IMG/VR virus record: IMGVR_UViG_3300027831_000001
Location: 3,952-67,951 of that record
DNA length: 64,000 nt
Source: a virus
Direction: 5' to 3' (one strand)
Part shown: piece after piece, positions 23,157-62,605 of the stretch
Position numbering within the stretch: position 1 is the first letter of the stretch
How the letters are laid out: each line of letters starts with the position of its first letter
Translations under genes and position numbers: made by a program
The notes under the pieces: model-generated
Databases searched by the model: none
The model's input: only the letters and a program-made list of their open reading frames with translations
Told to the model about the DNA's origin: nothing

Positions 23157-23199
23157 GGCAGCACGACCCCAACGGCGGAGGTCGGCGGGCCGAGCTGGG

Positions 23200-31858: not shown

Positions 31859-31894
31859 AAGGGCGGGACTCGCAAGGGTTCCGCCCTTCTCTTT
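31859..31894 (+). terminator. Intrinsic terminator
   Basis: AAGGGCGGGAC...GTTCCGCCCTT followed by CTCTTT. Confidence 0.75.
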
Positions 31895-31920
31895 GGTGCC
31901 GGGTAGTGTGCTAGAGTGGC

Positions 31921-32040
31921 CGCGCTGGGGAGCCAGCGCGAAGGTGGCCACCGGGCAGCGATCCAGCCGCGTCGTAGCTCAGCCGGGGAGAGCACCGAGA
32001 TGATCGGAGGACGGCCGCACACCCAAGCGGCCCAGCGCGT
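31921..32040 (+). ncRNA. Structured tRNA-like RNA 2 (canonical D-arm motif)
   Basis: GTGTGCTAGAGT promoter; TAGCTCAGCCGGGGAGAGC at 31975-31993; cloverleaf-like fold with a shortened anticodon arm and a non-canonical T-loop. Confidence 0.6.
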
Positions 32041-32077
32041 GAAGGGCGGGACTTGTAAGGGTTCCGCCCTTCTTTTT
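32041..32077 (+). terminator. Intrinsic terminator (near copy of 31859-31894)
   Basis: GAAGGGCGGGAC...GTTCCGCCCTTC followed by TTTTT. Confidence 0.8.
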
Positions 32078-32098
32078 GGTGCCGGTAGCCTCGCGCCC

Positions 32099-37271: not shown

Positions 37272-37474
37272 TCACCCCCGATCCCGCTCGGAAGCGGGGC
37301 CAGCACGGCCAGCACCACACGAGCCGGTGCCATGTTGGCCGCGCCCGGCGGCGTCGTGATGTACAACTCGCCTTCATGGCTGAGCCACACCTCAGCCCGC
37401 CCGTCCGTGGCGAGCCTGACCACGTTTGCGCCCTGGCCCTTTGCCCACTTCCACCCGCGGGGAAGCCGGTACAT
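37268..37474 (-). CDS. Hypothetical protein
   Basis: TGATG coupling to the ERF gene. Confidence 0.6.
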   Translation of the reverse strand: MYRLPRGWKWAKGQGANVVRLATDGRAEVWLSHEGELYITTPPGAANMAPARVVLAVLAPLPSGIGGE

Positions 37475-38472
37475 CAGGCACCCCCGGCGGCTTGCTGCCG
37501 CATCGCCAGGGCCTCGCGGAGCTGCGACGCTGCCAGCCTGTACTGCTCAGCTGTGCCGGTCGTCTGGGGAAACTGGCCCGGCTCCACACCGATCGCTCGC
37601 TCACTCACCCCCCTGACCTCGGCGCGGAAAGTATCCAGTGTCGTGCGGGGCGGGTTCTCGCCGTTGGCCCGCCGGTAGTCCTCGGCTCGCCAGTTCATCA
37701 GTGCCTGGCCGGCCGCGAGCCAGTGCGCGTGCGCTTCCGTGGTCTCCAGATCCGCCGCGGGCTTGGTCTTGCCTCTCTTGGCGGGTACCGGCTCAGGCGT
37801 AGAGACCGCGGGTTGCGTCTTGGTCTCGCGCGGCGGGTCCAGTAGGCGGCGGGCCGCGGCGGTCATGGCCTGTACCTGCGCGTCCGTGGGTTGGTCGTCG
37901 TACACGACGCCCGCGGCCTCGCGGATCTCCGCGTGGGCCTTGGCCGTCGTGATCCGCTGAGTTTGCGCGTAGGCGTCCCGTGCGGCCTCGTAGGCCTCCC
38001 AGAGCGGATCGGCCTTGGGCTCAGGCTCCCGATCCGGTCGGCGGTCGTGTCCTCGCGGTGCCTTGCTGGCCGCGTTGCCGTCGTCATCATCGTCGTCGGG
38101 ACACACGGCGAGCGTGGCCGAGAGGCTGTAGCGGCGCGCGTAGGTGAAGGCCGATCCGATCTGCTGCGCCGTGGCGTTGCGGGCCAGCGGGATCGTGACC
38201 TTGCCGCTGCGGTATTCGTGCCCCTTCCAGAGCAGGACCGTCTCCACCACGCACTCCACGGCCGACTCGGTGATCACCGTGTGGGCCTCTTGCGGGTACG
38301 CGAACTCTTGTTCGTTCAGCGCGTCCTCGCAGGCGTCGCACACCGCGGCGAGCGTGGCGTATCGCGACTTGAATGCCGGGTTATTTCTATCTTTGCTCGC
38401 TCGCTTTACCTTTGCGAAGACGCGCGCGAGCGCGTCGTGGAACTCGGCCTTGCTTGGTGGTACCGTGCTCAT
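37474..38472 (-). CDS. erf: ERF-family single-strand annealing protein
   Basis: K...NPAFKSRYATL, QQIGSAFTYARRYSL and DDDGN. Confidence 0.9.
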   Translation of the reverse strand: MSTVPPSKAEFHDALARVFAKVKRASKDRNNPAFKSRYATLAAVCDACEDALNEQEFAYPQEAHTVITESAVECVVETVLLWKGHEYRSGKVTIPLARNATAQQIGSAFTYARRYSLSATLAVCPDDDDDDGNAASKAPRGHDRRPDREPEPKADPLWEAYEAARDAYAQTQRITTAKAHAEIREAAGVVYDDQPTDAQVQAMTAAARRLLDPPRETKTQPAVSTPEPVPAKRGKTKPAADLETTEAHAHWLAAGQALMNWRAEDYRRANGENPPRTTLDTFRAEVRGVSERAIGVEPGQFPQTTGTAEQYRLAASQLREALAMRQQAAGGA

Positions 38473-38504
38473 GCCAACACATCTAGCACGGCCGTCTGCC
38501 GGGG

Positions 38505-39455
38505 TCAACCGACCTTCACGTGGCACCGGCGGACGAGCGAGACCCCGGGGGGCGAGGGCTTCCAGCGCAGGACGTCAAGCCCGGGCCGCGGCTCGATCGA
38601 CAAGCCGGCCTCATCAAGCGGTGCGCCGATCTGACCCGGGGCCAAGGCGAGCCTCCACGCCCAGCCGCCGTGCGCCGGCTCCCGGCTCATCCACACGCGC
38701 CCGTGCCCCTCCACGTCGTACCGCCCCGCGCAAGGCGGCTCACCCTCCCGGTACCCGAGCAGCATGTCCGCGCCCGCGGCCTTGCGGTCGATCTCCACGC
38801 GAGCCGGCGTGATCTTCTCGGGCACTACGCGTTGCCACGCGGGCGGCAGGACCTGGACGTCGAAGCCCTCGCCGGTCTCCACCGCCGTGGAGCGCCGGAC
38901 CGACAGCGTGAACGTACCCACGGTGGCCTTGGACTTCCCGGGCGCCAGGGTCTCCAGGAGCGTTAGGGCGTGACCCTCGGCCCACTGGCGCCGCTTGGCC
39001 AGCCGTTGCTCCACGCCGGCCAGGCGCTCGCGCTCGCGCACCACCGCGGCCTCCTGGTCGTCCAGCCATCGCAGGTAGCGGGCCACGTGCTCGGCGGCAT
39101 CGCGGGCCGAGACGTCGCGCGCCGCTTCGGCGGCCTCGGTCTCATCCGTGACCTCGCCCGCGTGTTGGAGGTACAGGGCATCCACATGGTCTACGGCCTC
39201 GCCGTGGACGTGCAGAGCTTGGCCCACGGCGGAGCGGGGGCGAGCGTTGGCGCGGGCCTGTAGTGTGCGGTTGTCGGTCGTGGGCTTGGCCGCGGGTCGG
39301 CCGTGGAGATCGTCATGGTCTTGGCGTGACATGGCTCGTGCCTCGTGTCTCTTGCATGTGTGGCGGCGCGCGATCAAGGCCCCGCGCGCGTAGGTACTCC
39401 AGTGGCGGGTGGCCGATTCGGGGCACCCGGGCTCGTCGCACCTGACGGTGGTCAT
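38505..39455 (-). CDS. Siphovirus gp157/Gam-like protein with extra domains
   Basis: Coiled coil, then K..VGTFTLSVRRS.AVE, LP..W and IDRK; adjacent to ERF. Confidence 0.7.
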   Translation of the reverse strand: MTTVRCDEPGCPESATRHWSTYARGALIARRHTCKRHEARAMSRQDHDDLHGRPAAKPTTDNRTLQARANARPRSAVGQALHVHGEAVDHVDALYLQHAGEVTDETEAAEAARDVSARDAAEHVARYLRWLDDQEAAVVRERERLAGVEQRLAKRRQWAEGHALTLLETLAPGKSKATVGTFTLSVRRSTAVETGEGFDVQVLPPAWQRVVPEKITPARVEIDRKAAGADMLLGYREGEPPCAGRYDVEGHGRVWMSREPAHGGWAWRLALAPGQIGAPLDEAGLSIEPRPGLDVLRWKPSPPGVSLVRRCHVKVG

Positions 39456-41731: not shown

Positions 41732-41911
41732 ATGGCCGAGATCGTGATCACCCTGCCGGGGTATCGGTGCGAGCGGTGCGGGCACCAATGGGTCGCCCGC
41801 GGTTCGCGTTGTCCGTCTTCTGACACTCGCCCGCGGCTCTGTCCGAAGTGCAAGAGCGCTTGGTGGGACACGCCGCGCCCCGCTCGCGCCGGGAGCACGG
41901 CCGGTGGCTGA
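41732..41911 (+). CDS. 59-aa Zn-ribbon protein
   Basis: CERCGHQW...CPKCKSAWWD; TTGCCT-17 nt-TATGGT promoter. Confidence 0.7.
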   Translation: MAEIVITLPGYRCERCGHQWVARGSRCPSSDTRPRLCPKCKSAWWDTPRPARAGSTAGG

Positions 41912-42878
41912 CGCGCCCGATGCGATCTTTGGCCTTCCGTTGTCACCCGGCGAGCGCTTGGTGCTTGTCCTGCTTTGGCGCTACGCCCCGGCCGGAACCG
42001 AGCGGCCGATCGTGTGGCCCGGCGCCGCGCGCTTGGCCGACGTGACCGGCTTCAGCGAGCGCGCGGTGCGGCGCATGCTGGCCGACCTTCGGCGCGCAGG
42101 TGCGATCGAGCGCTGCACGCGACCGGCCGCCGCGATGGCGAGCGGCAAGGCGTGGCGGTTGAACCCTGACCCGTCGGTCACCCTGACCGAGCGGTCCCCT
42201 GACCCACCGGCCCCCCCTACCGTGACCGACGGGTCACGTTCACCCTGTCCCGTCGGTCACCCTGACCCGTCGGTCACCCTGACCAAGCGGCCCCCCCTAC
42301 CCGGACCGAGCGGCCCTCCCCCCCCTGACCCACCGGTCCGGTTGACCCTGACCGAGCGGCCCCCCAGAAGCCCCATTGAAGCCCCAGAAGAATCCCCAGG
42401 TGAAGCCCCACCGGTGACCGCCGGGTTCGCGCTCCACCCCGCCCCGGTCAAAGCCGCCAACGGCGCACGCGCTCGCGGCAAGCCGCCGACGGGATGCACT
42501 GATCACCAGTGGGCGCAGGTCGCACAGGCCTACGCGGCGATCCGGGAGATCGGGGGCCTCGCGCCTCAGTGGGGGCGGTACCTCGACAACGCGACGAACC
42601 GCGCGATCGTCGGCAGGATCTACCGCGACGGGTACACGGACCAGGATGTCGCGGCGGTGGCCCAGCACATCGGCGAGCGCTTGCGCGATGGCTCCTTCGG
42701 AGATCCCAAGTGGGCAGGGCTCGAATACGTGGCCCGCGCGGTGCGGCGCTACCTGGACGAGATCGCGACCCGACCGACGGCAACGCTTGCGGCCCCACGG
42801 CAACGCACCGCCGCCACTGCGAGCGCCCCTGCCCCGTTGACCTACTACCCCGAACCTGAGGACGACTGCCCCGCATGA
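41904..42878 (+). CDS. Replication initiator (N-terminal winged HTH)
   Basis: LSPGERLVL..L, WPG..RLA..TGFSERAVRR.L..L...G.I; internal direct repeats; precedes a DnaC-like gene. Confidence 0.8.
   Translation: MADAPDAIFGLPLSPGERLVLVLLWRYAPAGTERPIVWPGAARLADVTGFSERAVRRMLADLRRAGAIERCTRPAAAMASGKAWRLNPDPSVTLTERSPDPPAPPTVTDGSRSPCPVGHPDPSVTLTKRPPLPGPSGPPPPDPPVRLTLTERPPRSPIEAPEESPGEAPPVTAGFALHPAPVKAANGARARGKPPTGCTDHQWAQVAQAYAAIREIGGLAPQWGRYLDNATNRAIVGRIYRDGYTDQDVAAVAQHIGERLRDGSFGDPKWAGLEYVARAVRRYLDEIATRPTATLAAPRQRTAATASAPAPLTYYPEPEDDCPA
42163..42365. repeat. Iteron-like repeat cluster (putative origin)
   Basis: Multiple CCCTGACC-N2-3-CGG units; CCCTGACCCGTCGGTCACCCTGACC occurs twice; one inverted copy. 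Confidence 0.75.
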
Positions 42879-44023
42879 GACACGAGATCACCCAGTGGAA
42901 CCGCCGAGCCCGCTATTTGCTGCTGGTGCTCGATACGAAGGCCCCCGATTCGCCGGTGGCCAAGGCGGGAGCACGGCTTCAACGTTGGCGGGAACTACAG
43001 GCCCAACTCGGCCCAGCCGCGCGCGAACTCCGGGCGGTCGCGCACCCGCCGGGGCTCGCCCGCGGTCCAGTGGGCGACGCGGTGTCGAGCCACGAGAGCG
43101 GGTGCCTGGTCCTGTCCTCGCCCGTGGGGGACGGCAAGACCAGCGGCGCGGCGTGGAGGGCCTACCACGCGCGCGGAGCCGTGCTCTGGCTCGACGCCGC
43201 CCGTGTAGGGCAGTGCCGCCAAGAGCAGCAACACACGACGTGGCTAGCACAGTGCCGCACCGCCGACCTGGTGGTGCTGGACGATCTGGGGGCTCCGGGG
43301 TCGTTCGGCCTGTACGAAACGCCCCGCGTGGTCTCGATCCTGACCGCGCTTGCGGCTCGGCCAGAACGTTCGATCGTGACGACGAACCAGACCCGCGAAG
43401 TGTTCCTGCGGATCTACGATGGAATCGCGAAGCCGCGGCCCGGAGAGCCTGCGCAGGCCGAGGGACGGCTGACCGATCGCCTGCGCGCGCGCCCGAATCG
43501 GTGGGTCGACATCCCGCCCGGCGAGGAGAGCCGCCGCGCGCAGGCCGAGCCGCCACCCGATGGACTCCCACCACGGGAGCAACGCGCCCAGGAGTACGTG
43601 CGGGCCGTCGGGGCCCTGACCGACACCGCGCAGGCGTACGTGATGGCCGACGTGGACCATGCGGCGGTGCTGCTCGTGGCTCGCGGTCTGGGCATGCTGG
43701 ACGCCGTCGCCCTTGATGCTCGCGTGGCCGAGCATGAGGCCGGCCGGGCGAGAATCGACGAGTTGATCCAGGGCATCGGGAGCGACATGGACGCGGCCAA
43801 TCGCTGGGCCGAGGTGGTCAAGCCCGCGGCAGACAAGCCGCCCGAAGAGGAACCCGGGGCAGCGCAGCGCCGCCGCGTGGCGCTGCTGGACCTACTGGAC
43901 TACACGGCCAACCAACTAGGTCGCGACCCCGCGGAAGTCCTGGCCGAGCTCGGCCGCACCCGCCGGACCCTCGCACCCGAGGACGAGCCGCGCCTGCTAG
44001 CCCTCGCGCCTGCGGTGTGCTAA
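42875..44023 (+). CDS. DnaC/IstB-like ATPase (helicase loader)
   Basis: SPVGDGKT, LVVLDDLG, IVTTN and R.TDRL. Confidence 0.8.
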   Translation: MRHEITQWNRRARYLLLVLDTKAPDSPVAKAGARLQRWRELQAQLGPAARELRAVAHPPGLARGPVGDAVSSHESGCLVLSSPVGDGKTSGAAWRAYHARGAVLWLDAARVGQCRQEQQHTTWLAQCRTADLVVLDDLGAPGSFGLYETPRVVSILTALAARPERSIVTTNQTREVFLRIYDGIAKPRPGEPAQAEGRLTDRLRARPNRWVDIPPGEESRRAQAEPPPDGLPPREQRAQEYVRAVGALTDTAQAYVMADVDHAAVLLVARGLGMLDAVALDARVAEHEAGRARIDELIQGIGSDMDAANRWAEVVKPAADKPPEEEPGAAQRRRVALLDLLDYTANQLGRDPAEVLAELGRTRRTLAPEDEPRLLALAPAVC

Positions 44024-44032
44024 CGTGGCCGC

Positions 44033-44335
44033 ATGAGCGACGACAAGCCCTTCCACGAGTGCGGCCAGCAAGTCGCGGACGCGACAACCCGCATGGGCGA
44101 GCCGGGCCACGACCCCACGGCCGACTGGTGGTGCGCGACATGCAAGGCCTACCTGGGCGACCAGGAGATCGGGTACCACGATCCGGACGACGTCGCACGA
44201 TGGCTAGAGCAGCGCGACGATCCGCTGTGCGCCCCACTCACGGAGGAGGGGCGGGCGCGCCTCTTGGCTGACTATGACCCGCCCACCGCAGCCCAAGGGG
44301 TGGACGACGAGCAGGGCGAGGATGGGCGCTTCTAG
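44033..44335 (+). CDS. Hypothetical protein
   Basis: Class B promoter (TAGCCC-17 nt-TAACGT). Confidence 0.65.
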   Translation: MSDDKPFHECGQQVADATTRMGEPGHDPTADWWCATCKAYLGDQEIGYHDPDDVARWLEQRDDPLCAPLTEEGRARLLADYDPPTAAQGVDDEQGEDGRF

Positions 44336-44338
44336 GCC

Positions 44339-44722
44339 ATGCGTCTGGTCGTGGAGATCCCAGGCAACCCCTGGGCGGGCGCGATCAACCGCCGCGACCG
44401 AGCCGGGGTGACACGAGGGGGCCGGCTCTTCAACCGCAAGCAACCCGGGTTCAAGGCCTACCAGGCCACGGTGGAGCAATGGGCCCGGCAGGCCGCGCGG
44501 CTCCAGGGCGTGCGGTTCGGCCCCGCGCTGGTCCGGGTCGCGATCGTCCTGGGCGTGCCGGACCGCCGCCGCCGCGACCTGGACGGCCCGATCAAGGCGA
44601 TCCTGGACGGCTGCACGAAGGCCGGGATCTGGGCCGACGACTCGCAGGTGTGGCGGCTCGCGGTGGAGAAGGCGCTGGGCGAGCCCCGGGCCGTGCTGAC
44701 CGTGCGAGCGTGGCAAGGTTGA
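44339..44722 (+). CDS. rusA: RusA-family Holliday junction resolvase
   Basis: PDRRRRDLDG.IKAILD...G.W.DDSQV. Confidence 0.9.
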   Translation: MRLVVEIPGNPWAGAINRRDRAGVTRGGRLFNRKQPGFKAYQATVEQWARQAARLQGVRFGPALVRVAIVLGVPDRRRRDLDGPIKAILDGCTKAGIWADDSQVWRLAVEKALGEPRAVLTVRAWQG

Positions 44723-44754
44723 CCGCTTGGCCGGCATGTGCTAGCTAGGTTGGC

Positions 44755-45093
44755 ATGAGTGCGCTACGCCCGAGCAACGCCGACGTGCGCCGAGCCGTGC
44801 AGGTCGGATGGCGCGGCGTGGAGCTCGGTCTGGACACCGTGCCGGGCGTGGTGCTGGCTGACGTCAGGGCGTCCGGTGACGACGGAGAGCCGTGGACGAG
44901 CCCCACGGCTCTCGTGGTCCATGTGTGGGGCGGAGAGCCAGCGCGAGTCTGGGCACGCATGCTAGAGCACCGGGTCCACGGGTGGACGCTCGTTGCCCAG
45001 GTGTGGCCCGTGTCGCGGTGGGCGCGGCTGCGGGCCTGGTGGCGGTGGGCAACGTGGCCGCTTGTGCGGTGGCTGGATCGGGGGCAGGGATGA
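44755..45093 (+). CDS. Hypothetical protein
   Basis: TTGACC-17 nt-TAGCTA promoter. Confidence 0.65.
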   Translation: MSALRPSNADVRRAVQVGWRGVELGLDTVPGVVLADVRASGDDGEPWTSPTALVVHVWGGEPARVWARMLEHRVHGWTLVAQVWPVSRWARLRAWWRWATWPLVRWLDRGQG

Positions 45094-45338
45094 TCGATCC
45101 GCGGGACAGGACCGATGCGCAGTTGAGCGCGGCGATCGATCGGGCCTACGTGTTTCACGTGTACCGCGATATGGATGGGCGGACTCGCCCGGTTGCACGG
45201 GAAGCCGCACCGCTGAAAGCGCACGCAGTGGCACGCGAAGCGCTGCGCAAGTCTCCAGACGCATATCAGATCGCCGTGCGGCCAAACTTGACCCCTCCGA
45301 CTTGGACAGCATGGATCTTGCCCGGGGGCCGCCGATGA
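45090..45338 (+). CDS. Hypothetical protein (MIDPRDRT...)
   Basis: ATGA overlaps at both ends. Confidence 0.6.
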   Translation: MIDPRDRTDAQLSAAIDRAYVFHVYRDMDGRTRPVAREAAPLKAHAVAREALRKSPDAYQIAVRPNLTPPTWTAWILPGGRR

Positions 45339-46621
45339 CGCGCGGCAAGACCACGCCCCGCGGCGAAGCCATCGCGGTACGGACCCGCGTGCTCGCGCAG
45401 TCGCTGGGCCAGGCCCGGGTGGACTACTGGGCGGCCCTGCTCGCGCGCCCGCAACTCGCCGCGCCGATCGTCCACGCCGTGCGGCTGGACGTGGAGACGG
45501 GCGGCTGGGAGCGACGCCTGGGCCGGCTGGTCGCGCACGCCCGGACGCTCGTGCAGACCCGGCGGCGCGGCGACGAGATCCGCTACGCCAAGGCATGCCG
45601 GCGCGCGGCCGAGTGGCTGGCCCAGCAGGACCGCGGGTGCGACGTCGCCAATGGTGTCGCCGATGCGATCGCGCTCTGGGCCGGGCGCCGGCTACCGGGC
45701 GATCACCGGTGGGCGGGCCACCGGCTCTACCCGGCCCGCACCCAGAGCCAGCGGTGGCGCCAATACTGGCACGCCGTGGACCACGGACGACGCGAGCGCG
45801 AGCGGCTGCGCAACGAGATCGTGGTGGTCAACGAAGGCCTGGTGATCACGCTGTGCAACCGGTGGATCCCGTGGGCCGAGGGGCACTTGAGCCGCGAGGA
45901 CATCCAGCAGGCCGGGCGGGAGGGGCTGTTCCGAGCCGCAGACCTGTTCGAGCCAGAGCGCGGCTTCCGGTTCTCCACCTACGCGGGCGGGTGGATCCGC
46001 CATCGGGTGTTCCGGCTCCACCAAGAGGGCCGCTCCGACGTCAGGGCCCCAACGGGCGTCCAGATGGTGGCGCTCGCGATCTCGGATCTGGCCGAACGGG
46101 GCGAGCGCGACCCGGCGACGATCCGCGCCGCTCTCCGCCGGCGTGCAGCCGAGAAGCGCGAGGCCGCGATCCGTCTCGCCCGCACGCCCGCGGCCCAGGC
46201 CAAGCTCCGCGCCGCACGGGTGAAGGAGCCGCCGACCGAGGACGCGATCGCGTCGGCGCTCGAGTACCTGGCGAGCCGCACGATCTCAATGGACGCGCGG
46301 CTAGGACGGAGTGAGGAGGGCCGCCCGCAGACCCTGGCCGACCTGCTGCCCGACACGTCGCCGCTGGCCGACGAGGTGATCGATCTGTGCCGACTCGAGG
46401 AGAGGCTGGCCGCCGTGGACACCGAGCGCGTGACGGCGCGGCTGCTCCAGGCCGTGGCGGGACTCGACCCCCGCGACCGAGACCACGTGCGAGCTCGCTA
46501 CTACCGGGGCCGCACGCTGCACAGCCTGGCGGGCGAGCGCGGGACGTCAGCGCGAGACCTAGAGCGACACGAGCAGGCGATCCTGGATCGGCTCCGCGCC
46601 GACGTGGGGATCACGGCATGA
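45335..46621 (+). CDS. Sigma-70-family RNA polymerase sigma factor
   Basis: Region 2 NEGLV...EDIQQAG.EGL.RAAD.FEPERGFRFSTYA..WIR; region 3 ISMDA..G...TLADLLPD; divergent region 4. Confidence 0.9.
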   Translation: MTRGKTTPRGEAIAVRTRVLAQSLGQARVDYWAALLARPQLAAPIVHAVRLDVETGGWERRLGRLVAHARTLVQTRRRGDEIRYAKACRRAAEWLAQQDRGCDVANGVADAIALWAGRRLPGDHRWAGHRLYPARTQSQRWRQYWHAVDHGRRERERLRNEIVVVNEGLVITLCNRWIPWAEGHLSREDIQQAGREGLFRAADLFEPERGFRFSTYAGGWIRHRVFRLHQEGRSDVRAPTGVQMVALAISDLAERGERDPATIRAALRRRAAEKREAAIRLARTPAAQAKLRAARVKEPPTEDAIASALEYLASRTISMDARLGRSEEGRPQTLADLLPDTSPLADEVIDLCRLEERLAAVDTERVTARLLQAVAGLDPRDRDHVRARYYRGRTLHSLAGERGTSARDLERHEQAILDRLRADVGITA

Positions 46622-46818
46622 GAGGAACGGAGCACATGGGACGACAACGCAAGGGAATCAAGCAGCCGGTCCTGGGACGAATCGAGTACGTCAAGGACAG
46701 CACGATCACGATCAGTTGGCACGGAAGCGCCAAGGACCTGCACCGACTATTGAACGTCATGGAAAACCGGCAAGACGTGGAGATCACGATCGCGCCGGCG
46801 CGAGAGGAGATGACGTGA
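46618..46818 (+). CDS. Hypothetical protein
   Basis: ATGA overlap with the sigma gene. Confidence 0.55.
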   Translation: MRGTEHMGRQRKGIKQPVLGRIEYVKDSTITISWHGSAKDLHRLLNVMENRQDVEITIAPAREEMT

Positions 46819-47834
46819 TGATGACTCAATATCAAGACGGCCGGTTGAAGGCCAAGATCGAAGAGTGGACGCCCAGCGCAGGCCAGCAGATCGCTTTGGG
46901 CCAGTCGCACGGGATGGTCGTGCGGGTGTACGACCATGGCCCCGCCGACGGGCAAGCCCAGGCGCCGCGGATGATCTTCGATTCCGAGCAGCGCCACGCC
47001 ACGGCGGGGATCTTCGGCGACACGGCCGAGGCCGCCGACTACGCGGGCCGGATCGAGATAGCGCTGCTGATCGCCGCGCGATGGCGCGAGACGATCCAGC
47101 ACGAGCGCCGCGAAGCCTGTCCGGCTCGCCAGCGCGAGCACTGGCATCGCCGCGACCTGGCCAAGGCGGAGGCCAGCGAGGCCAACAAGCGGGCCAAGCA
47201 GCACGGCGAGGACGCGGAGCGGTTGGCCAAGGAAGCCGACGATCCCGAGGTGCAGGTGGATGTGCCGCTGAGGGCAGGCGGCTACGCGGTAAAACTCGGC
47301 CCATCGCTGACCGATGGCACGGCCGAGACCGAGGAATGGCGCGTCCTGGTTTCGCACGAGGGCGCACCGATACGGCCGCAGAGCAGGGATCGCCGCCGCC
47401 ACGGGCCGCCTGCCAAGAAGGCAGCGGAGCCCGACGAGCCCAGCACGCTCGTCGACGAGGCACTGGCCGAGACGGCGGCCAAGCGCCCCGGCCGTGATCC
47501 CGCGGCCGACCGCGCGGCGTTTGACGAGCCGGCCGAGCCCAAGAGCAAGGGCCGCAAAGGGCGGAGCAAGGCGCCTGCTCTGCCCGACCATGTGCCGGAT
47601 GCCGCCGGCCTGCCGATCAAGATCGGCAGCAAGGTGGAGCTCGAAGACCACCGAGGCGACGGCTACACGGCCGAAGTGGCGTCGATCGATCGATACGACG
47701 CCAAGATCGGACAGTGGGTGATCACCGTGGAGGACCTGCATAGCGGCGCCCCGGCCGAGGTCCTGTCCAGGGAGTGCCGTCGCCTAGATCCGCCACCCGA
47801 GCCCACGGAGGAGGACCCGGACGACGCGGCTTGA
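46818..47834 (+). CDS. Hypothetical protein
   Basis: TGATG coupling; long open frame. Confidence 0.65.
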   Translation: MMTQYQDGRLKAKIEEWTPSAGQQIALGQSHGMVVRVYDHGPADGQAQAPRMIFDSEQRHATAGIFGDTAEAADYAGRIEIALLIAARWRETIQHERREACPARQREHWHRRDLAKAEASEANKRAKQHGEDAERLAKEADDPEVQVDVPLRAGGYAVKLGPSLTDGTAETEEWRVLVSHEGAPIRPQSRDRRRHGPPAKKAAEPDEPSTLVDEALAETAAKRPGRDPAADRAAFDEPAEPKSKGRKGRSKAPALPDHVPDAAGLPIKIGSKVELEDHRGDGYTAEVASIDRYDAKIGQWVITVEDLHSGAPAEVLSRECRRLDPPPEPTEEDPDDAA

Positions 47835-47865
47835 GTGGCCGGGTCAGCCGTGCTAGCTTGGCGGA

Positions 47866-48201
47866 ATGAGCACGACGAACAAAGTGAAAGCCGTGAGTGA
47901 CAGGCTCCGGCCCGAGATGGTGCATGCGATGAGGGTCGGGTTCGCCAACAGCGGACCGACCAGTAAGGGCTTGGTGGCGCGGCGTCTGGCCTGCCCGGGT
48001 AGCCGGGCCCACGATCTGCGGTTCACCCCGATGGGTCGGCAGTGGGCCTCCATGCTGTGCATGATGGCCCGGGTCCACGCGACGCTGTACGCAGCGCGCG
48101 AGTTGCTCCAAAGCGAGCACTTCGATCGCAAGGCCCAGGCCGACGTGGAATCGGCCCTGGCCGGGTGCATGACCGCGATCCGCCCGGTGGTGTGGCCATG
48201 A
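47866..48201 (+). CDS. Hypothetical protein
   Basis: TTGAGT-17 nt-TAGCTT promoter; ATGAGCAC start. Confidence 0.65.
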   Translation: MSTTNKVKAVSDRLRPEMVHAMRVGFANSGPTSKGLVARRLACPGSRAHDLRFTPMGRQWASMLCMMARVHATLYAARELLQSEHFDRKAQADVESALAGCMTAIRPVVWP

Positions 48202-48716
48202 CGCGCCGAGTCGAGGCACTCGTGGTCCTGCAAGACCACGACGAAGGAGACGAAGACTTCGGTCCTCGCCCAGCGACGCGCGGAGAGTGCCGCGAAGGCG
48301 AGAGACCATGTCCTTGGGTCGCATGCCGCTATCACCTAGCGGTGGAGATCGGCGTTGACGGATCGCTGAGGCAGCGCCGAGATCCCGATCCGATCGAGTC
48401 GTCGACGCTGCCGACATGCGCGCTGGACGTAGCGGCCGAAGGGGAGCACACCCTAGGGGAGATCGGCGCCGTCATGACGCTGGCGCGCGAGCGGGTGCGC
48501 CAGATCGAGCTGTTGGCGACCCGGAAGTTCCGGGCCGCTGCAAAGCGCATGGGCTTCGACCTGGTGGCTTTGCTACCGCCGGAGCTACCGGCAGGCCACG
48601 CATGGGCGGCCGCTGGTGATGAGTGGATCAGGGGCGAGGCGACCCCGGCCCACATGAAGCGCTACCAGGCTAAGCGCTACCAGGCCAAACGGGCGCGCAA
48701 GGCAGGTGCCGCTTGA
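48198..48716 (+). CDS. Stand-alone sigma-70 region-4 protein with an N-terminal Cys/His motif
   Basis: C....RPCPWVACRYHL, TCALD and HTLGEIG.VM.LARERVRQIE..A.RK. Confidence 0.85.
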   Translation: MTRRVEALVVLQDHDEGDEDFGPRPATRGECREGERPCPWVACRYHLAVEIGVDGSLRQRRDPDPIESSTLPTCALDVAAEGEHTLGEIGAVMTLARERVRQIELLATRKFRAAAKRMGFDLVALLPPELPAGHAWAAAGDEWIRGEATPAHMKRYQAKRYQAKRARKAGAA

Positions 48717-48973
48717 CCTGGACCGCAGCCCCACCACGCTGGCGACTCGCTCCTGTGCCCCGCCCGCCCGCGTGGATAGGCGACACGCCGGGCGAGCGCG
48801 TGGCGTCGATCGTGGCCGACGATCGACGGTGGGCCGCGGCCCTGCGGTGGACCCGGCGCAATCGGGCCCTGTACGTGGCGACCCAACAGATCGCCAAGGG
48901 CCTGCACGTCGTGGTCATGCGCGGCACGGCCCGTGCTCGGTTCCGGTTCGTGGAGCCGGCGCGGTGGTGCTAG
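48713..48973 (+). CDS. Hypothetical protein
   Basis: TTGA overlap. Confidence 0.5.
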   Translation: MTWTAAPPRWRLAPVPRPPAWIGDTPGERVASIVADDRRWAAALRWTRRNRALYVATQQIAKGLHVVVMRGTARARFRFVEPARWC

Positions 48974-49482
48974 GGCGGCGGCCCAGCACGTGCCCCCAGG
49001 GCCACGCGGTGCGGCGCAATGGCAAGCGCTGGTGGTGCTGGGTCTGCGATCGCGAAGTGGAGCCGCGCGCCCACCCGACGGCCAAGCTTGCCCGCCGCCG
49101 GGTCAAGCCGCTGGGCAGCGCGGAGAAGAGGGCCCGGACGCGCGCGCGGGCGTTCGGCGAGTCGGAGCGCATGGCATGGCTCCACTCGCTCCCATGCGTG
49201 GCCGCCGGGCGACCGGGTCACGTATGCGGCCCGTGGGACATGGAGCGCGGCGGGCCGCACATTCAGGCCGTACACGTGCGAGCGCGCGGGGCCGGTGGCA
49301 CGGCGGATGATGTCGTGCCGGGCTGCTGGGTCCTGCACGAGCAGGCGGGCGAGCGCGGCACGGAGCAGCGCCGACGGTGCGAGGCCGAGCTGGGCCTGGA
49401 TCTCGAGGCCGAAGCGGCGAGGCTTGCCCAGGAGTGGCGCGACTTGTGCCAGGCCGGCGAGTGTGCTAGCGTGGCGGAATGA
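48967..49482 (+). CDS. HNH-like (DUF968/Ref-type) nuclease with an N-terminal Zn ribbon
   Basis: WLHSLPCVA.G...AVHVRARGAGG..DDVVPGC..LH. Confidence 0.6.
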   Translation: MLGRRPSTCPQGHAVRRNGKRWWCWVCDREVEPRAHPTAKLARRRVKPLGSAEKRARTRARAFGESERMAWLHSLPCVAAGRPGHVCGPWDMERGGPHIQAVHVRARGAGGTADDVVPGCWVLHEQAGERGTEQRRRCEAELGLDLEAEAARLAQEWRDLCQAGECASVAE

Positions 49483-52400
49483 GCACGAAAGTTCTATTCC
49501 AACACGCGGACGGCCAGAGCGCCATGATGCTCGTCCAAGAAGGCGACGGCCTGATGATCGAGATCGCGAGCGGCCACCGGATCCTGAGCGTCGCGCTGCC
49601 GGAGGAGCGAAGACGGGAAGTCGCGGCGATCCTGGATCCAGCGCCCGACAGGGGAGTCGAAGATCACGGCATCAAGTGGGAGCCGGCCAGCATGGAGACT
49701 GACGGGTTCGGAGTGGCGCGCGTGACACACTGGCGCACCAAGCCCGACATTGACAAGTCAGACGATCGAGAAGACAGGACGAAGCCCGCGCCCAAGACCT
49801 ACCTATGGCGGCCCGCGGGCGGGGCCTGGTCCTGGGGGATCTGGGTAGGAGGGCGTGGGCTTCCGGTGGGTGTACGGTGCGCGACTGAGGCCGAAGCGCT
49901 TGCCATCACTTGGCAGCACCACGACGAGCAGGTGGCCGACGTGAAGCGCCACGCCGCATGGCTCGCGGACCTGCACCGCGCGGCCGAGCGGGACATCGAC
50001 CGACTGGCCGCCGCTCGTGAGCAGACCGCGGCAGCCGAGCAGGTGGTCGCCACCCTCCAGGCCACGCTCCGCCGAGAGAGGGAGTCGCGAGCCGACGCCC
50101 GAGCCGATGGGGCCGCAGCGCTCGCGCTGGAGATCGACCAAGCCGTGGCCACCCACGCCCCCGACGCCTTCCATGGCGACACCTGGACCACGGTATCGCG
50201 CGTGGAAGCGCTGGCCCAGTGGTGGCACGAGAGCGCCGACGTGCGCGACGAATGGAACGGGTCGCTGGAGGAGCTACGCGCCGCCGCCCGAGCTGAGGAG
50301 CGGGCGGCCGTCGAGCGCGAGCTCGAGTCGGGCCTGCGCGCGCTCGGTCTGCGCCCCCACGGCACCGAGCTCCTCGACCTGGTGCGCACCGTGGCCGAGG
50401 CGCTCGAGGAGCGGCGAGCCGAGGGGCGCCGCGACGTGCTGAAGCGGCTGTTCGTCCACCGGGCCCCAGTCGACTACGTGGCCGACGACGAGACCCATGC
50501 GCTCGTGTACGCCACATACCCGACGTGGGCCGCGGCGGTTGACGCCCGCGATGCCATCGTCGCCCCGGCCTCCCCCAAGGCGGCACCGCCCGCCTCCCAC
50601 GCCGTCCAGCCCGATGTGTGCGCCGCGGAAGCCAAGCGGCAGGTTGCCCGTTTTCATGCGTGGGCCAATGATGTCGCCGACATCCTGGATCGACCGCCCC
50701 GCACCACGGATCCGCTCGAGGACATCAAGACCGAGGTGGTGCGCCTCAAGATCAGCATCGCCGACGCCCGAGCCGAGGGGGTGGAGCAGGGGCGCGCGCA
50801 GGCGCTGTCCGAGACGATGGCCGCGCTCGCCTCGCTACGTTGGGTGCAGGAGTGGTGCCGCGGTCTGCTGGCGTCCGACGACTGGGCCCGCCGAGCGCTC
50901 GACAAGCTCGACGACGTGGAGCGCCGACTCGTGGCCTCGCCACCGGTGAAGGGAGAGTGGCAGCCCGAACACGGGCCCGACCAGCGCGGCCCCGACTACT
51001 ACGCCGCGCGAGCGTGCGCGGAGAGCCGCGGCGAGCTCGTGGAAGAACACGAGCTCGGGCAGGTCACCCGCTACCGGTGCAGCTGCGCTGACTGCCCCGG
51101 GCTGCCTTGGGCGCCGTCCAGCAAGCAGCCGCACCCGTGCGGGAAGACCCCGGCGGCCCCTCTCCAGGGAGGGACGGACGCCGACCTGAGCGATGAGGCT
51201 TGTCCGTGCTGCGAAGAAGAGGTTGATGACCGGAAGAACTTCTGCCCAGACTGCGACCTGGACGTCTGCGACGAATGCTTCGACGGGCAGCGTTGCGGCG
51301 CATGTGCCTCATCAGTGGCCGCGCCCGTCGCCACTCCCACGGCTCCCAAGGAGCCCGAGCGGTACGTCACCGGGGCCGAGCTCGAGCGCGACATGGCGAA
51401 CGCCGACGCCATCGGAGACGCGGCGCGAAGCTACGCCGAGGCCTACGACACCGCTGGTGGCGACGATTTCGACCCGCGAGCCCACGCCGCCTTCTCGCGC
51501 CTACTCGACGCAGCTCGGCGGTGGATGACCGCGGATCCCAAGGGGCCCGAGCCCGACGAAAAGCACGTGGCGCACACGCCCACGGGCAGGTACTGCAAAG
51601 CCTGCTACTCGCCGCTGTACGGGCCCGACGACATGCCGACCGACCTCGCCATCAAGTTGCGGTGGGCAACCGCGCTGGGCATGGCGACCCAAGGGCTCCG
51701 GGCGGGGCACGAGTCCGGCGAGATGCGGAGCTACCCCACGTCGACCGAGCGGTGGGGGCTCCCGCTCCCCTTCACGTGGGCGGTCGAGGATGGCCGCTGG
51801 TGCGTGAAGCGTCCCCACCCGCACGCGCCATGGCCCGTAGACGTGGGAGCCATCATCGACCGTCGCAACGCAGAGGACCCGGCCCCAAGCGCTCCCCAGG
51901 GAGAGCCGGACGCCGGGAGACTGCGCGCGCTCACCAATGCCGCGGAGGCGTACGGGCAGGCTCGACACTACGGCGCGCCGACGGAACACGCCGAAGCGCT
52001 TCTCGTCGAAGCCTCCCGAGCCTTCGCCACCCCCACGGCTCCCCAGGAGCCCGAGCCCGAGACCCCCGACGAGCGCGAGGCGGCCATCGTACGACGGCTG
52101 GCCGGCGAGTGGGGGGAGATCGAGGTGGGGCCCACCGAGTCGATCGACGACGTGGTGAGCCACATCCACGGCGCAGGGACGGTCATCATGCGCATGGTGA
52201 ACGAGGTTGGCGACTGGCGTGACTGGGCTCTTCGCCTCGCCGGCCGCAAGATGTCAGACTGGCGCAGCGACAAGGCGACGCGCGAGGCCGTGGAGAAGCT
52301 GCTGGCCGCCGCTGTGAAGCGCGGCCGCACCCCCGAGGACGTCGAGCGCGACTATGCAGCAGGCCCCGAGGATTTCGGCGGCGAGGACTACTCGGCCGAG

Positions 52401-52715
52401 GCGCCCGACGAGACTACCCGCCCCGCCCCGCTCGCGGCCGTGCCCAGGGTGGGCGCCCCTCCCGAGCCGTGGACCGTGGTCGAAGGCGGCGGGCTCGGTC
52501 GTGATGACCTGCGGCTCATCTCGCGCCCGTGGCACTCGGGCACCATGTACGCCGGAGTCTCGTACAAGGGCTGGCTGACGTGCTTCGTGGACGACGCGAG
52601 CATGCCCACAGCGATGCCCCCCGAGGCCGCGGCGTGGCTGCTCGCCAAGACCAGCGGACGCGACCCACGTGAACCGGTGCGCCCCATGAGCGACGAGCCC
52701 GGGGGTGCCCCGTGA
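49479..52715 (+). CDS. Large (1078 aa) mosaic non-structural protein
   Basis: Class B promoter; coiled coils, Zn fingers and repeated Pro-rich linkers. Confidence 0.8.
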   Translation: MSTKVLFQHADGQSAMMLVQEGDGLMIEIASGHRILSVALPEERRREVAAILDPAPDRGVEDHGIKWEPASMETDGFGVARVTHWRTKPDIDKSDDREDRTKPAPKTYLWRPAGGAWSWGIWVGGRGLPVGVRCATEAEALAITWQHHDEQVADVKRHAAWLADLHRAAERDIDRLAAAREQTAAAEQVVATLQATLRRERESRADARADGAAALALEIDQAVATHAPDAFHGDTWTTVSRVEALAQWWHESADVRDEWNGSLEELRAAARAEERAAVERELESGLRALGLRPHGTELLDLVRTVAEALEERRAEGRRDVLKRLFVHRAPVDYVADDETHALVYATYPTWAAAVDARDAIVAPASPKAAPPASHAVQPDVCAAEAKRQVARFHAWANDVADILDRPPRTTDPLEDIKTEVVRLKISIADARAEGVEQGRAQALSETMAALASLRWVQEWCRGLLASDDWARRALDKLDDVERRLVASPPVKGEWQPEHGPDQRGPDYYAARACAESRGELVEEHELGQVTRYRCSCADCPGLPWAPSSKQPHPCGKTPAAPLQGGTDADLSDEACPCCEEEVDDRKNFCPDCDLDVCDECFDGQRCGACASSVAAPVATPTAPKEPERYVTGAELERDMANADAIGDAARSYAEAYDTAGGDDFDPRAHAAFSRLLDAARRWMTADPKGPEPDEKHVAHTPTGRYCKACYSPLYGPDDMPTDLAIKLRWATALGMATQGLRAGHESGEMRSYPTSTERWGLPLPFTWAVEDGRWCVKRPHPHAPWPVDVGAIIDRRNAEDPAPSAPQGEPDAGRLRALTNAAEAYGQARHYGAPTEHAEALLVEASRAFATPTAPQEPEPETPDEREAAIVRRLAGEWGEIEVGPTESIDDVVSHIHGAGTVIMRMVNEVGDWRDWALRLAGRKMSDWRSDKATREAVEKLLAAAVKRGRTPEDVERDYAAGPEDFGGEDYSAEAPDETTRPAPLAAVPRVGAPPEPWTVVEGGGLGRDDLRLISRPWHSGTMYAGVSYKGWLTCFVDDASMPTAMPPEAAAWLLAKTSGRDPREPVRPMSDEPGGAP

Positions 52716-62582: not shown

Positions 62583-62605
62583 GAGGCCGAAGATAGCCTC
62601 CCAGC

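What the first reader, a model, noticed from the sequence alone, without database searches (positions are those of the whole stretch)
45335..48716. Phage sigma factor with degenerate region 4, plus a separate canonical region-4 protein
Seen: the 45335 sigma has an RpoD-like region 2, but its region-4 recognition helix reads TLHSLAGERGTSARDLERHE rather than T.ERVRQIE. Nearby, 48198 encodes only a Cys/His motif plus a near-consensus region 4 (TLGEIG...RERVRQIE). Established: region 2 reads the -10 element; region 4.2 reads the -35 element and binds the beta flap. Inference: the sigma serves the late promoters that lack a -35. The free region-4 protein may occlude TTGAC -35 elements, displace host sigma region 4, or complement the phage sigma in trans.
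Basis: partly seen in the sequence, partly recalled or inferred. Interest (0 to 1): 0.72.

Follow-up and report, generated by a model that had tools for sequence, protein, structure and literature searches.

The report
Phage sigma factor plus AsgB-like regulator
An uncultured high-GC phage carries an ordinary, complete sigma factor and, nearby, a phage copy of a myxobacterial regulator type (AsgB-like) that joins four cysteines to a near-perfect copy of the sigma part that reads the -35 promoter box.

Summary
Both genes are real. 45335-46621 encodes a 428-aa sigma-70-family factor with region 2 and a full-length region 4. Region 4 is divergent, not degenerate: 16 of 17 family members match Pfam Sigma70_r4, and its dN/dS (0.10) is as low as the rest of the gene (0.13). 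48198-48716 encodes a 172-aa protein with four invariant cysteines and a helix-turn-helix whose recognition helix (RERVRQIE) equals primary-sigma region 4.2.

This second protein belongs to a very large family. It is a mostly single-copy gene in 92 of 151 sampled Myxococcota genomes, in conserved non-phage gene order in the six Polyangium and Labilithrix-type loci annotated. Its nearest named cluster is "putative DNA-binding protein AsgB". It is also common in uncultured phages; only 3 of 29 near-complete ones also encode a recognisable sigma, so it does not generally complete a phage sigma.

My best reading is a free-standing regulator that binds -35-like TTGAC boxes. A direct partnership with sigma factors remains a live rival, because the module is fused to, or translationally coupled with, complete sigmas in a few phages. 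The complex prediction could not be run. Overall: a new (phage-borne) member of a known but mechanistically unsolved family.

The parts
44738..44757 (+). Promoter-like motif GTGCTAG-N10-ATG with TTGACC 17 nt upstream of the TAG hexamer. It heads ORF 44755-45093 and possibly the sigma gene downstream.
   Evidence: The motif is kept in the related contig L246 at position 525.
44755..45093 (+). ORF of 112 aa, no family match.
45335..46621 (+). Sigma-70-family RNA polymerase sigma factor (P0001, 428 aa), complete. It has a conserved N-terminal helical extension (1-150), region 2, a middle helical part and region 4.
45836..46015 (+). Sigma region 2 (residues 168-227).
   Evidence: Pfam PF04542, 35.6 bits, E 8.3e-9
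46454..46597 (+). Sigma region 4 (residues 374-421), with regions 4.1 and 4.2 both present. Its recognition helix is of a family-specific type (R-x-[DE]-[LI]-E-x-x-E). It has a 4-residue deletion in the 4.1/4.2 turn relative to 15 of its 16 relatives; the exception is the 96%-identical P0022.
46716..47834 (+). ORF of unknown function (372 aa from the first start codon; GC3 0.80).
47850..47868 (+). Promoter-like motif GTGCTAG-N9-ATG with TTGAGT 17 nt upstream. It heads the two-gene unit that contains the region-4.2 protein.
47866..48201 (+). ORF of 111 aa, no family match. Its stop overlaps the next start (ATGA at 48198-48201).
48198..48716 (+). AsgB-like protein (P0002, 172 aa): a four-cysteine module, a sigma-region-4.2-type HTH, and a subfamily-specific basic C-terminal tail.
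48267..48338 (+). Conserved motif RPxTRGxC-x6-C-P-W-x2-C-R-Y-H-L (residues 24-47; Cys31, Cys38, Cys43, His46).
   Evidence: Pro25, Cys31, Pro37, Cys38 and Cys43 are invariant in 91 of 91 sequences; His46 is kept in 84 of 91.
48414..48533 (+). Fourth invariant cysteine (Cys74, in TCALDVA) followed by the HTH. The recognition helix is A-R-E-R-V-R-Q-I-E (residues 96-104).
   Evidence: Cys74 and Asp77 are in 91 of 91 sequences; R97, E98, R99, R101 and Q102 are in 78-81 of 91. Pfam r4 match. PDB sigma region 4 alignments.
49463..49481 (+). Next GTGCTAG-N9-ATG motif (TTGTGC 17 nt upstream). It heads the 1078-aa ORF 49479-52715 and so bounds the unit.

Best explanation
The interval holds two separate transcription genes of a complete, roughly 68-kb uncultured tailed phage. 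The host is probably a member of Myxococcota; this is inferred from 71% GC and from where the second family lives.

(1) 45335-46621 is a complete sigma-70-family factor. Its region 4 is intact, folded and selectively maintained, but has its own recognition-helix type, so it should direct host core RNA polymerase to phage-specific promoters. The best candidates are the phage-specific GTGCTAG-type extended -10 elements placed 6-7 nt before the start codons of 15 GC3-supported genes, which would give leaderless mRNAs (inferred).

(2) 48198-48716 is a phage-borne member of the AsgB-like family. A four-cysteine (probably metal-binding) module is stapled onto a three-helix HTH whose recognition helix is that of primary-sigma region 4.2. 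It most likely acts as a free-standing, sequence-specific DNA-binding regulator that recognises -35-like TTGAC(A/C) hexamers. It would thereby occlude or re-route promoters read by the host primary sigma, for example the phage's own TTGACC-17-TAGCTT promoters.

It is not a spare part needed to complete the phage sigma. Shown here: domain content, family membership, distribution and selection. Inferred: DNA target, direction of regulation, metal binding, and which promoters the sigma reads.
For: Sigma is complete:
- Pfam r2 and r4, TIGR02937 and PHROG 351 all match.
- 16 of 17 relatives match r4 and 16 of 17 match r2.
- Region-4 dN/dS is 0.10.
- The model (pLDDT 81) matches sigma-70 chains in holoenzyme structures, E down to 1e-7.

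P0002 family:
- Invariant Pro25, Cys31, Pro37, Cys38, Cys43, Cys74 and Asp77 in 91 of 91 sequences. The recognition helix [TS]RER[VI]RQ[ILV]E has each position kept in 78-81 of 91, counting the listed alternatives where given.
- It aligns to TRERIRQIE of SigA region 4 in PDB chains, including the -35 DNA complex 1ku7.
- 87 of 91 members match Sigma70_r4, and no Pfam family covers the Cys module.
- Family size: 3337 cluster representatives at E<=1e-30.

Chromosomal gene of Myxococcota:
- 547 of 600 pattern hits in genomes are relatives. 61 of the 80 listed titles name Myxococcota-lineage taxa (my count).
- 92 of 151 sampled genomes of the phylum carry it, mostly as one copy.
- In the six Polyangium and Labilithrix-type loci annotated it sits among non-phage genes: an alpha/beta hydrolase in five of them, with Opp permease, purH and ParA-like genes recurring.

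AsgB link:
- The ESM Atlas structure search puts P0002 nearest the cluster 'putative DNA-binding protein AsgB' (TM 0.63, 143 residues aligned, Myxococcota).
- AsgB is described as a 163-aa DNA-binding protein with a C-terminal similarity to sigma-70 region 4 (PMC3986340, passages). It is still called 'likely a transcription factor' in 2026 (bioRxiv 10.64898/2026.08.28.747804, passages).

Independence from phage sigmas:
- Sigma70_r2 was found in 9 of 79 phage records carrying the family (6 of 79 over the cut-off), and in 3 of 29 records that are at least 90% complete.
- Where a phage has both genes, the sigma has its own region 4 (L029; L003 = P0187 and P0188; L035).

Candidate targets in this phage: CGGTTGAC occurs 11 times against 2.4 expected, including five conserved TTGAC[CG]-17-TA[GC][CTA][TA][TA] promoter-like regions.
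Against: - No DNA-binding, metal or expression data exist for any phage member.
- I could not align P0002 directly to M. xanthus AsgB (MXAN_2913), because its sequence could not be fetched. The link rests on an automatically named Atlas cluster and on homology to unnamed Myxococcota chromosomal members (40% identity over 104 aa, E 1e-26).
- The module is physically tied to sigma factors in several phages. It is fused in frame behind a complete sigma in L003/P0187 and P0188. It is translationally coupled (ATGA) to a sigma gene in L035. It is followed 305 nt downstream by a sigma gene in L029.
- Earlier notes of this scan (unchecked) describe Cys4/region-4.2 proteins paired with sigmas that stop before region 4.2.
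- P0002 sits on a long branch, more than 2 substitutions per site from every other member sampled, so its function may have drifted.
- That the GTGCTAG motif is read by this sigma is only correlative: 16 copies here against 2 in 1,100 kb of other phage loci.
Confidence: 0.5

Rival explanations
1. P0002 docks onto a sigma factor or the holoenzyme (the phage sigma P0001, the host primary sigma, or both) as an auxiliary or alternative region-4.2 module. It would give the holoenzyme a second or different -35-type reading head. This is an 'augmented' rather than a split sigma.
For: - One fusion lineage: a complete sigma plus the AsgB-like module in one frame (L003 ORF 7098-8396 = P0187, and P0188 of 610 aa).
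- ATGA-coupled sigma and AsgB-like genes in L035; adjacent genes in L029/L030.
- ECF-type region-4 repeats fused to the module in P0274 and P0297.
- In this window the two genes lie 1.6 kb apart on one strand.
- Earlier unchecked notes e1-6086385, e1-5632560, e1-5734183 and e1-5734198 report Cys4/region-4.2 proteins alongside 4.2-less phage sigmas.
Against: - 26 of 29 near-complete phages with the family have no recognisable sigma.
- The family is a mostly single-copy chromosomal gene in Myxococcota, whose sigmas are complete.
- All sigmas found next to it, and P0001 itself, keep their own region 4.
- Regulatory genes cluster in phage early regions anyway, so adjacency is weak evidence.
- The two fusion proteins belong to one related lineage, not several independent events.
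- Whether the small proteins in the earlier notes are homologous to this family was not testable.
Confidence: 0.25
2. P0002 is a region-4 mimic that competes with the host primary sigma for the beta-flap of RNA polymerase. This would be host shut-off or sigma appropriation, with DNA binding secondary or absent.
For: The HTH is nearly identical to primary-sigma region 4.2. The gene sits in the early/middle region and is headed by its own promoter-like motif.
Against: - Region 4.1, which forms much of the flap-binding surface in sigma (recalled knowledge), is replaced by the Cys module. Pfam matches only profile positions 19-49.
- The residues kept best are those of the DNA-reading helix.
- A conserved single-copy host gene is hard to reconcile with a pure polymerase poison.
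- The fold search found no flap-bound analogue beyond sigma itself.
Confidence: 0.1
3. P0002 is a DNA-binding protein of another process, such as a small-terminase-like packaging recognition factor or a replication/partition factor, and only looks like a transcription protein.
For: In some phages the family gene lies directly upstream of the large terminase: L004/L008/L016 and L071, L075, L076. One family member gave a weak TerS_N match (E 0.098, 1 of 91).
Against: - In this phage it is 23 kb from the terminase gene at 25111.
- In most loci its neighbours are replication, nucleotide-metabolism and regulatory genes.
- The chromosomal orthologues sit in non-phage context.
- AsgB mutants change transcription of many genes (PMC3986340 passages).
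Confidence: 0.05

Closest known systems
AsgB (MXAN_2913) of Myxococcus xanthus and the NCBI-named 'sigma factor-like helix-turn-helix DNA-binding protein' family
   Same: A small protein (AsgB 163 aa; P0002 172 aa) whose C-terminal HTH resembles sigma-70 region 4 (PMC3986340 passages). It has the Myxococcota distribution. The Atlas structural neighbour is the cluster named AsgB. The NCBI family name appears on a close relative, P0072.
   Different: P0002 is encoded by a phage, sits on a long branch and has its own basic C-terminal tail. No GenBank phage has a relative by tblastn. No direct alignment to MXAN_2913 was possible. The four-cysteine motif is shown here for the family, and I could not check whether it has been described for AsgB. 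AsgB's own mechanism is unsolved.
Phage-encoded sigma-70-family factors (PHROG 351)
   Same: P0001 matches PHROG 351 at E 3.7e-28 over residues 155-423. It has regions 2 and 4 and a sigma-70-like predicted fold.
   Different: It has a conserved 150-residue N-terminal helical extension and a family-specific region-4 recognition helix. Only 16 full-length relatives were found, all from metagenomes, and no close relative in IMG/VR or GenBank phages.
Two-subunit (split) sigma factors: B. subtilis SigO-RsoA, T4 gp55/gp33 (recalled)
   Same: Promoter recognition is shared between a sigma-like protein and a small separate protein. The module here is found fused or coupled to sigmas in a few phages.
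   Different: In this case the sigma lacks nothing: region 4 is complete. Most carriers of the small protein have no phage sigma.
WhiB-like (Wbl) proteins of Actinobacteria (recalled)
   Same: Small four-cysteine proteins that act at the region 4 / -35 corner of the holoenzyme.
   Different: Wbl proteins bind sigma region 4 and carry no sigma-like HTH. Here the protein itself carries the region-4.2 HTH, and the Cys spacing is C-x6-C-x4-C-x30-C. PDB rows with WhiB complexes were hit only through their sigma region 4 chain.

Membership tests
Sigma-70 family (P0001) | Region 2 (core binding, -10 recognition) | tested here: met
   PF04542, 35.6 bits against cut-off 24, residues 168-227; 16 of 17 relatives match.
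Sigma-70 family (P0001) | Region 4 with HTH (4.1 + 4.2) | tested here: met
   PF04545 aligned over profile positions 2-49 of 50, E 8.7e-5, 22.4 bits (1.7 below Pfam's cut-off). TIGR02937 scores 50.7 against 42.9 and spans 159-421. 16 of 17 relatives match. dN/dS is 0.10. Helices have block pLDDT 87-90.
Sigma-70 family (P0001) | Region 3 | tested here: inconclusive
   No Pfam Sigma70_r3 match. The model has helices at 240-311 and aligns over its length to sigma-70 chains.
Sigma-70 family (P0001) | Overall fold like solved sigma factors | tested here: met
   Foldseek gave 149 PDB matches at E<=0.001. The best are E. coli sigma-70 in holoenzyme, E 1e-7, probability 1.00.
Sigma-70 family (P0001) | Binds core RNA polymerase and directs promoter-specific initiation | not testable with these tools
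   Needs in vitro transcription.
AsgB-like family (P0002) | C-terminal HTH similar to sigma-70 region 4.2 | tested here: met
   PF04545, 24.2 bits, residues 82-112. The profile hits SigA region 4 chains at E 4e-9. 87 of 91 family members match.
AsgB-like family (P0002) | Homology over the whole core to the Myxococcota chromosomal members | tested here: met
   40% identity over 104 aa, E 1e-26, to P0178 (NCBI MCK6569859.1). The profile hits cover positions 8-129 in Labilithrix and Polyangium genomes.
AsgB-like family (P0002) | Direct sequence homology to M. xanthus AsgB (MXAN_2913) itself | not testable with these tools
   The sequence could not be fetched: the original paper is not held and no named cluster member was found. 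The only link is the Atlas cluster 'putative DNA-binding protein AsgB', TM 0.63 over 143 aligned residues.
AsgB-like family (P0002) | Four invariant cysteines (C-x6-C-x4-C-x30-C), as defined from the family here | tested here: met
   Cys31, Cys38, Cys43 and Cys74 are in 91 of 91 sequences.
AsgB-like family (P0002) | Sequence-specific DNA binding / transcriptional regulation | not testable with these tools
   Needs EMSA, footprinting or ChIP.
Split (two-subunit) sigma factor | The sigma polypeptide lacks the part carried by the small partner | tested here: not met
   P0001 has a complete region 4 including the 4.2 HTH.
Split (two-subunit) sigma factor | The two polypeptides bind each other | not tested
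   The complex-prediction job (A2 + A3) was never accepted because the queue was full.
Split (two-subunit) sigma factor | The two genes co-occur across relatives | tested here: not met
   Sigma70_r2 was found in 9 of 79 records with the small protein, and in 3 of 29 near-complete ones. Close relatives of this particular phage could not be examined; only 2 short contigs were found.

The most novel reading that the evidence does not exclude
The Cys4 + region-4.2 module is a portable 'second -35 reader'. It docks onto sigma-70-type factors, either the host primary sigma or a phage sigma, and re-targets the holoenzyme. AsgB would be the cellular founder of this class. Phages of Myxococcota would have captured it repeatedly, sometimes fusing it to their own sigma. 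Here P0002 and P0001 would work as one promoter-recognition unit although both look complete.
Probability: 0.2. Interest if true: 0.75.

Novelty: new member of a known kind. Interest (0 to 1): 0.42.

Why it matters
AsgB has been known genetically since 1989-1994 as a key early regulator of Myxococcus development, yet in 2026 it is still only 'likely a transcription factor'. This work shows three things. It belongs to a very large family defined by four invariant cysteines plus a primary-sigma-type -35 reading helix. The family is a mostly single-copy chromosomal gene across Myxococcota. Many uncultured phages carry their own copies, occasionally fused to a sigma factor.

That gives concrete handles for solving the mechanism: test for metal binding, test TTGAC binding, test sigma contact. 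It also suggests how these phages may tamper with host promoter recognition. The sigma gene itself is ordinary.

Tried and rejected
- **GenBank phages.** blastn of 44000-49500, and tblastn of P0002 and of a typical family member (L033), found nothing.
- **Viral contigs with P0002 alone** gave no relatives. The alignment-based scan was needed.
- **Close relatives of the sigma with context.** The viral-contig scan with A2 returned only generic sigmas at 46% identity or less. The metagenome scan returned 2 short contigs of 3.3 and 2.0 kb. Co-occurrence of the two genes in this phage's own lineage therefore could not be tested.
- **Naming AsgB by exact look-up.** Neither look-up gave any member named AsgB: 6 ORF versions, which fell into one cluster, and then 10 representatives.
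- **Papers.** Plamann et al. 1994 (PMC205307) is not held (one search was a malformed term).
- **Fold searches of the P0002 model.** Foldseek against PDB gave only local sigma region 4 matches (E above 0.5, probability up to 0.98). VIA-align wide gave a best Z of 2.8. BFVD gave a best E of 0.24, to small 'Sigma70_r4 domain' proteins of uncultured phages. No solved counterpart of the Cys module was found, which does not show that the fold is new.
- **Sequencing runs.** No RNA holder is listed. One DNA run holds the stretch and may be its source.
- **Earlier-findings look-ups** by sequence and by place gave nothing.
- **Tree.** It used 145 distinct core sequences. Six near-duplicate loci were left out beforehand, and 2 viral and 1 genomic loci were dropped because the motif pattern failed. 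P0002 sits on a long branch and its 7 nearest tips are viral. Resolution is too low to name a donor.
- **Considered and rejected.** A WhiB-like Fe-S protein: the Cys spacing differs and the protein carries its own HTH. An Ogr/Delta-type zinc-finger late activator: no similarity was found in Pfam or PHROGs.
- **Not consulted.** No supplementary file of any paper was read.

Full report
**Setting.** The window is bases 3952-67951 of a 67,951-bp IMG/VR virus record with direct terminal repeats, rated 100% complete. GC content is about 71% throughout. It is a tailed phage. Pfam finds the large terminase (25111-26751), portal (27122-28786), major capsid protein (59101-60231), tail and baseplate proteins, an ERF recombinase (37474-38526, minus strand), RusA (44339-44722), an RP-C-like replication protein (41904-42878) and three DNA methylases. 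The finding lies in the replication/regulation part of the genome. Nothing similar exists among 50,697 GenBank phage records by blastn or tblastn.

**The sigma gene.** ORF 45335-46621 gives 428 aa. The start is supported by a sharp switch of the high-GC3 frame at about 45300: GC3 is 0.90 in the gene and 0.61 in the in-frame upstream stretch.
- Pfam finds Sigma70_r2 at residues 168-227 (35.6 bits, cut-off 24).
- Pfam also finds Sigma70_r4 at residues 374-421, aligned to positions 2-49 of the 50-position profile (E 8.7e-5; 22.4 bits, just under the 24.1 cut-off).
- NCBIfam TIGR02937 passes its cut-off (50.7 against 42.9) over residues 159-421.
- PHROG 351, 'RNA polymerase sigma factor', matches at E 3.7e-28.

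Sixteen full-length relatives (45-96% identity), all from metagenomes, share the whole architecture, including a conserved 150-residue N-terminal extension.

However, it aligns with a family-wide pattern (T..A.IA..RG..R.EIE..E..L..LR) and not with random sequence.
- 16 of 17 family members match Sigma70_r4 (best E 4.1e-12) and 16 of 17 match Sigma70_r2.
- Against the 95%-identical copy on contig L246, dN/dS is 0.10 for codons 345-428, 0.145 for region 2 and 0.13 overall.
- The AlphaFold model (pLDDT 81) has confident helices through region 4.
- As a whole the model matches sigma-70 chains in holoenzyme structures (149 PDB matches at E<=0.001, best 1e-7).

So region 4 is complete, folded and under purifying selection. 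It is divergent in specificity, not degenerate.

**The small protein.** ORF 48198-48716 gives 172 aa. Its ATG overlaps the stop of the preceding 111-aa ORF (ATGA), so the two are probably co-translated. Pfam sees only the second half of region 4 (profile positions 19-49, residues 82-112).

Homologues define a family with the motif RPxTRGxC-x6-CPWxxCRYHL ... TCALDVAxxGxxTLEE.G....TRER.RQIE. In a 91-sequence alignment:
- Pro25, Cys31, Pro37, Cys38, Cys43, Cys74 and Asp77 are invariant, and His46 is kept in 84 of 91.
- The recognition-helix residues R97, E98, R99, R101, Q102 and E104 are kept in 78-81 of 91.
- That helix is the TRERIRQIE of primary-sigma region 4.2, as the HMM alignments to PDB SigA chains show.
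- 87 of 91 members match Sigma70_r4, and no Pfam family covers the Cys part.

The model (pLDDT 77; 83-97 over residues 20-130) shows a short helix, a beta hairpin and a three-helix HTH. The fourth cysteine lies at the start of the first HTH helix. Structure searches find only local matches to sigma region 4 and nothing for the whole protein.

**What the family is.** It is very large: 809 proteins at E<=1e-5 among the 8000 candidates scored, and 3337 cluster representatives at E<=1e-30. NCBI calls members 'sigma factor-like helix-turn-helix DNA-binding protein'.
- In one genome per species, 547 of 600 pattern matches encode a relative. Of the 80 loci listed, 61 titles name Myxococcota-lineage taxa by my count, 8 say 'delta proteobacterium', 8 give an unspecific Proteobacteria name, and 3 name other taxa.
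- In the six Polyangium and Labilithrix-type loci annotated, the gene lies among non-phage genes: an alpha/beta hydrolase in five of them, with Opp permease, purH and ParA-like genes recurring.
- It is the single full-length copy in each of 4 genomes searched whole.
- 92 of 151 sampled genomes of that phylum have it at E<=1e-20, mostly as one copy.

The ESM Atlas places P0002's structure nearest a Myxococcota cluster named 'putative DNA-binding protein AsgB' (TM 0.63, 143 residues aligned). AsgB (MXAN_2913) is described as a 163-aa DNA-binding protein whose C-terminus resembles sigma-70 region 4 (PMC3986340, passages read). It is listed as a delta-proteobacterial DNA-binding protein (PMC2129111, one table row). 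It is still called 'likely a transcription factor' in 2026 (bioRxiv 10.64898/2026.08.28.747804, passages).

From memory only: the 1994 paper (not held) proposed that AsgB binds -35-like hexamers.

I could not fetch MXAN_2913 itself, so the AsgB assignment is well supported but indirect. P0002 is 40% identical over 104 residues (E 1e-26) to a chromosomal Myxococcota member.

**The family in phages.** A pattern scan of IMG/VR found 153 relatives among 184 pattern matches, and 79 loci were kept. These include six near-duplicate pairs.
- Neighbours are mostly replication, nucleotide-metabolism and regulatory genes: family A DNA polymerase, DnaB, D5 primase, helicases, methylases and integrases.
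- In a few phages the next large gene is the terminase.
- None of this window's neighbouring genes travels with it.
- Sigma70_r2 was found in 9 of 79 of these records (6 of 79 over the cut-off), and in 3 of the 29 that are at least 90% complete.

The family therefore does not depend on a phage sigma.

**Links to sigma factors that do exist.**
- In L003 a complete sigma (regions 2 to 4) continues in frame into a full AsgB-like module (ORF 7098-8396). The same protein is in the database as P0187. A related 610-aa protein, P0188, adds CCHC zinc knuckles at the N-terminus.
- In L035 the sigma stop and the AsgB-like start overlap as ATGA.
- In L029/L030 a complete sigma gene follows 305 nt downstream.
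- P0274 and P0297 fuse ECF-type region-4 repeats to the module, and P0186 is a tandem duplicate of the module.
- Earlier, unchecked notes of this scan describe Cys4/region-4.2 proteins next to phage sigmas that stop before region 4.2. I could not test whether those proteins are homologous to this family. I did show that here, and in L003, L029 and L035, the sigma keeps its own region 4.

**Promoter-like motifs.** CGTGCTAG occurs 10 times against 1.5 expected. The looser form GTGCTAG-N8-11-[AG]TG occurs 16 times. Fifteen of these sit at the start codon of a GC3-supported ORF on either strand, in early and late regions alike.
- The geometry fits an extended -10 element (TGcTAGnnT) 6-7 nt before the A of the start codon, which implies leaderless mRNAs.
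- 8 of these 15 have TTGnnn 17-18 nt upstream, including the ones heading the ORF before the sigma gene (44738), the P0002 unit (47850) and ERF (38489).
- 7 of these 15 have none. Four of those precede genes in the structural-gene part of the genome: 4644, 8605, 9426 and 29665.
- The motif is phage-specific: 16 copies in 64 kb here against 2 in 1,100 kb of the other 79 phage loci. It is kept in the related contig L246.
- A second family of five 75-nt regions on the minus strand carries GTGTCGCTTTTCGG-TTGACC-17-TAGCTT-7-GTGAGCACC in its commonest form; the five copies vary (TTGACC or TTGACG; TAGCTT, TACATA or TATATA). CGGTTGAC is enriched overall, 11 against 2.4 expected.

They do not test it.

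**Verdict.** The sigma is an ordinary complete phage sigma. The small protein is a phage-borne member of the AsgB-like family. It is most likely a free-standing TTGAC-type DNA-binding regulator (confidence 0.5). Direct docking on sigma factors is a serious rival (0.25). Trans-completion of this sigma's region 4 is not supported.

Noticed in passing
window, 16 sites: 2123(-), 4628, 8588, 9410, 10494, 15112(-), 16420(-), 27081(-), 29648, 36160(-), 38489(-), 40702, 44738, 47850, 49463 (plus a doubtful one at 43250(-)): GTGCTAG-N9-10-ATG/GTG sits directly at gene starts, often followed by ATGAGCAC (Met-Ser-Thr). It looks like an extended -10 promoter for leaderless mRNAs. In the late region it sits in 23-33-nt gaps right after the previous gene's stop codon. 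It is half-palindromic (GTGCT...AGCAC). It is phage-specific: 16 copies here against 2 in 1,100 kb of other phage loci.
   Followed up: partly
window 164-238, 1260-1334, 13011-13085, 13977-14051, 62513-62587 (read on the minus strand): Five copies of a 75-nt promoter-like region. In its commonest form it reads GTGTCGCTTTTCGG-TTGACC-17-TAGCTT-7-GTGAGCACC; the copies vary at the -35 and -10 boxes. It heads small minus-strand ORFs inside the plus-strand structural gene block, with a divergent plus-strand gene start on the other side.
   Followed up: partly
window 42163-42371: An array of short direct repeats (CCCTGACCCGTCGGTCACCCTGACC-like), iteron-like, inside the RP-C/HTH_36 replication-protein gene 41904-42878. 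It is possibly the replication origin.
   Followed up: no
L003:7098-8396; proteins P0187, P0188; L037:3818-5308: One lineage of uncultured phages encodes CCHC zinc knuckles (one in L003, several in P0188), then a complete sigma factor, then an AsgB-like module, all in one polypeptide. A relative (L037) has the knuckles and the module but no sigma part.
   Followed up: partly
proteins P0186, P0274, P0297: Other architectures of the AsgB-like module: a tandem duplication (P0186), and fusions behind two or three ECF-type region-4/GerE-like HTH repeats (P0274, P0297).
   Followed up: no
window 27122-28786 and 32880-34586: The portal protein carries a C-terminal HTH_17 domain (residues 501-545). 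The Mu-F-like head protein carries an N-terminal AAA_33 kinase-like domain.
   Followed up: no
window 31859-31902 and 32042-32085: Two 93%-identical 44-nt copies of a GC-rich hairpin followed by a T-run (AAGGGCGGGAC...GTTCCGCCCTTCTCTTTGG). It looks like an intrinsic terminator. The copies are 183 nt apart, and the second lies inside the called ORF 31916-32863, so that ORF's start may be miscalled.
   Followed up: no
window 18510-19424, 21789-23252(-), 36163-36882(-): Three separate N6/N4 DNA methylase genes in one 68-kb phage.
   Followed up: no
L151, L154, L092, L093, L132, L150 (Polyangium, Labilithrix and related genomes): The chromosomal AsgB-like gene is 240-330 aa here. It has an acidic N-terminal region, a conserved basic stretch (TREQRRSRRKREVRARTISVKRMTKRELE) before the Cys motif, and an acidic tail. 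The basic stretch recurs in many phage copies but not in P0002.
   Followed up: no
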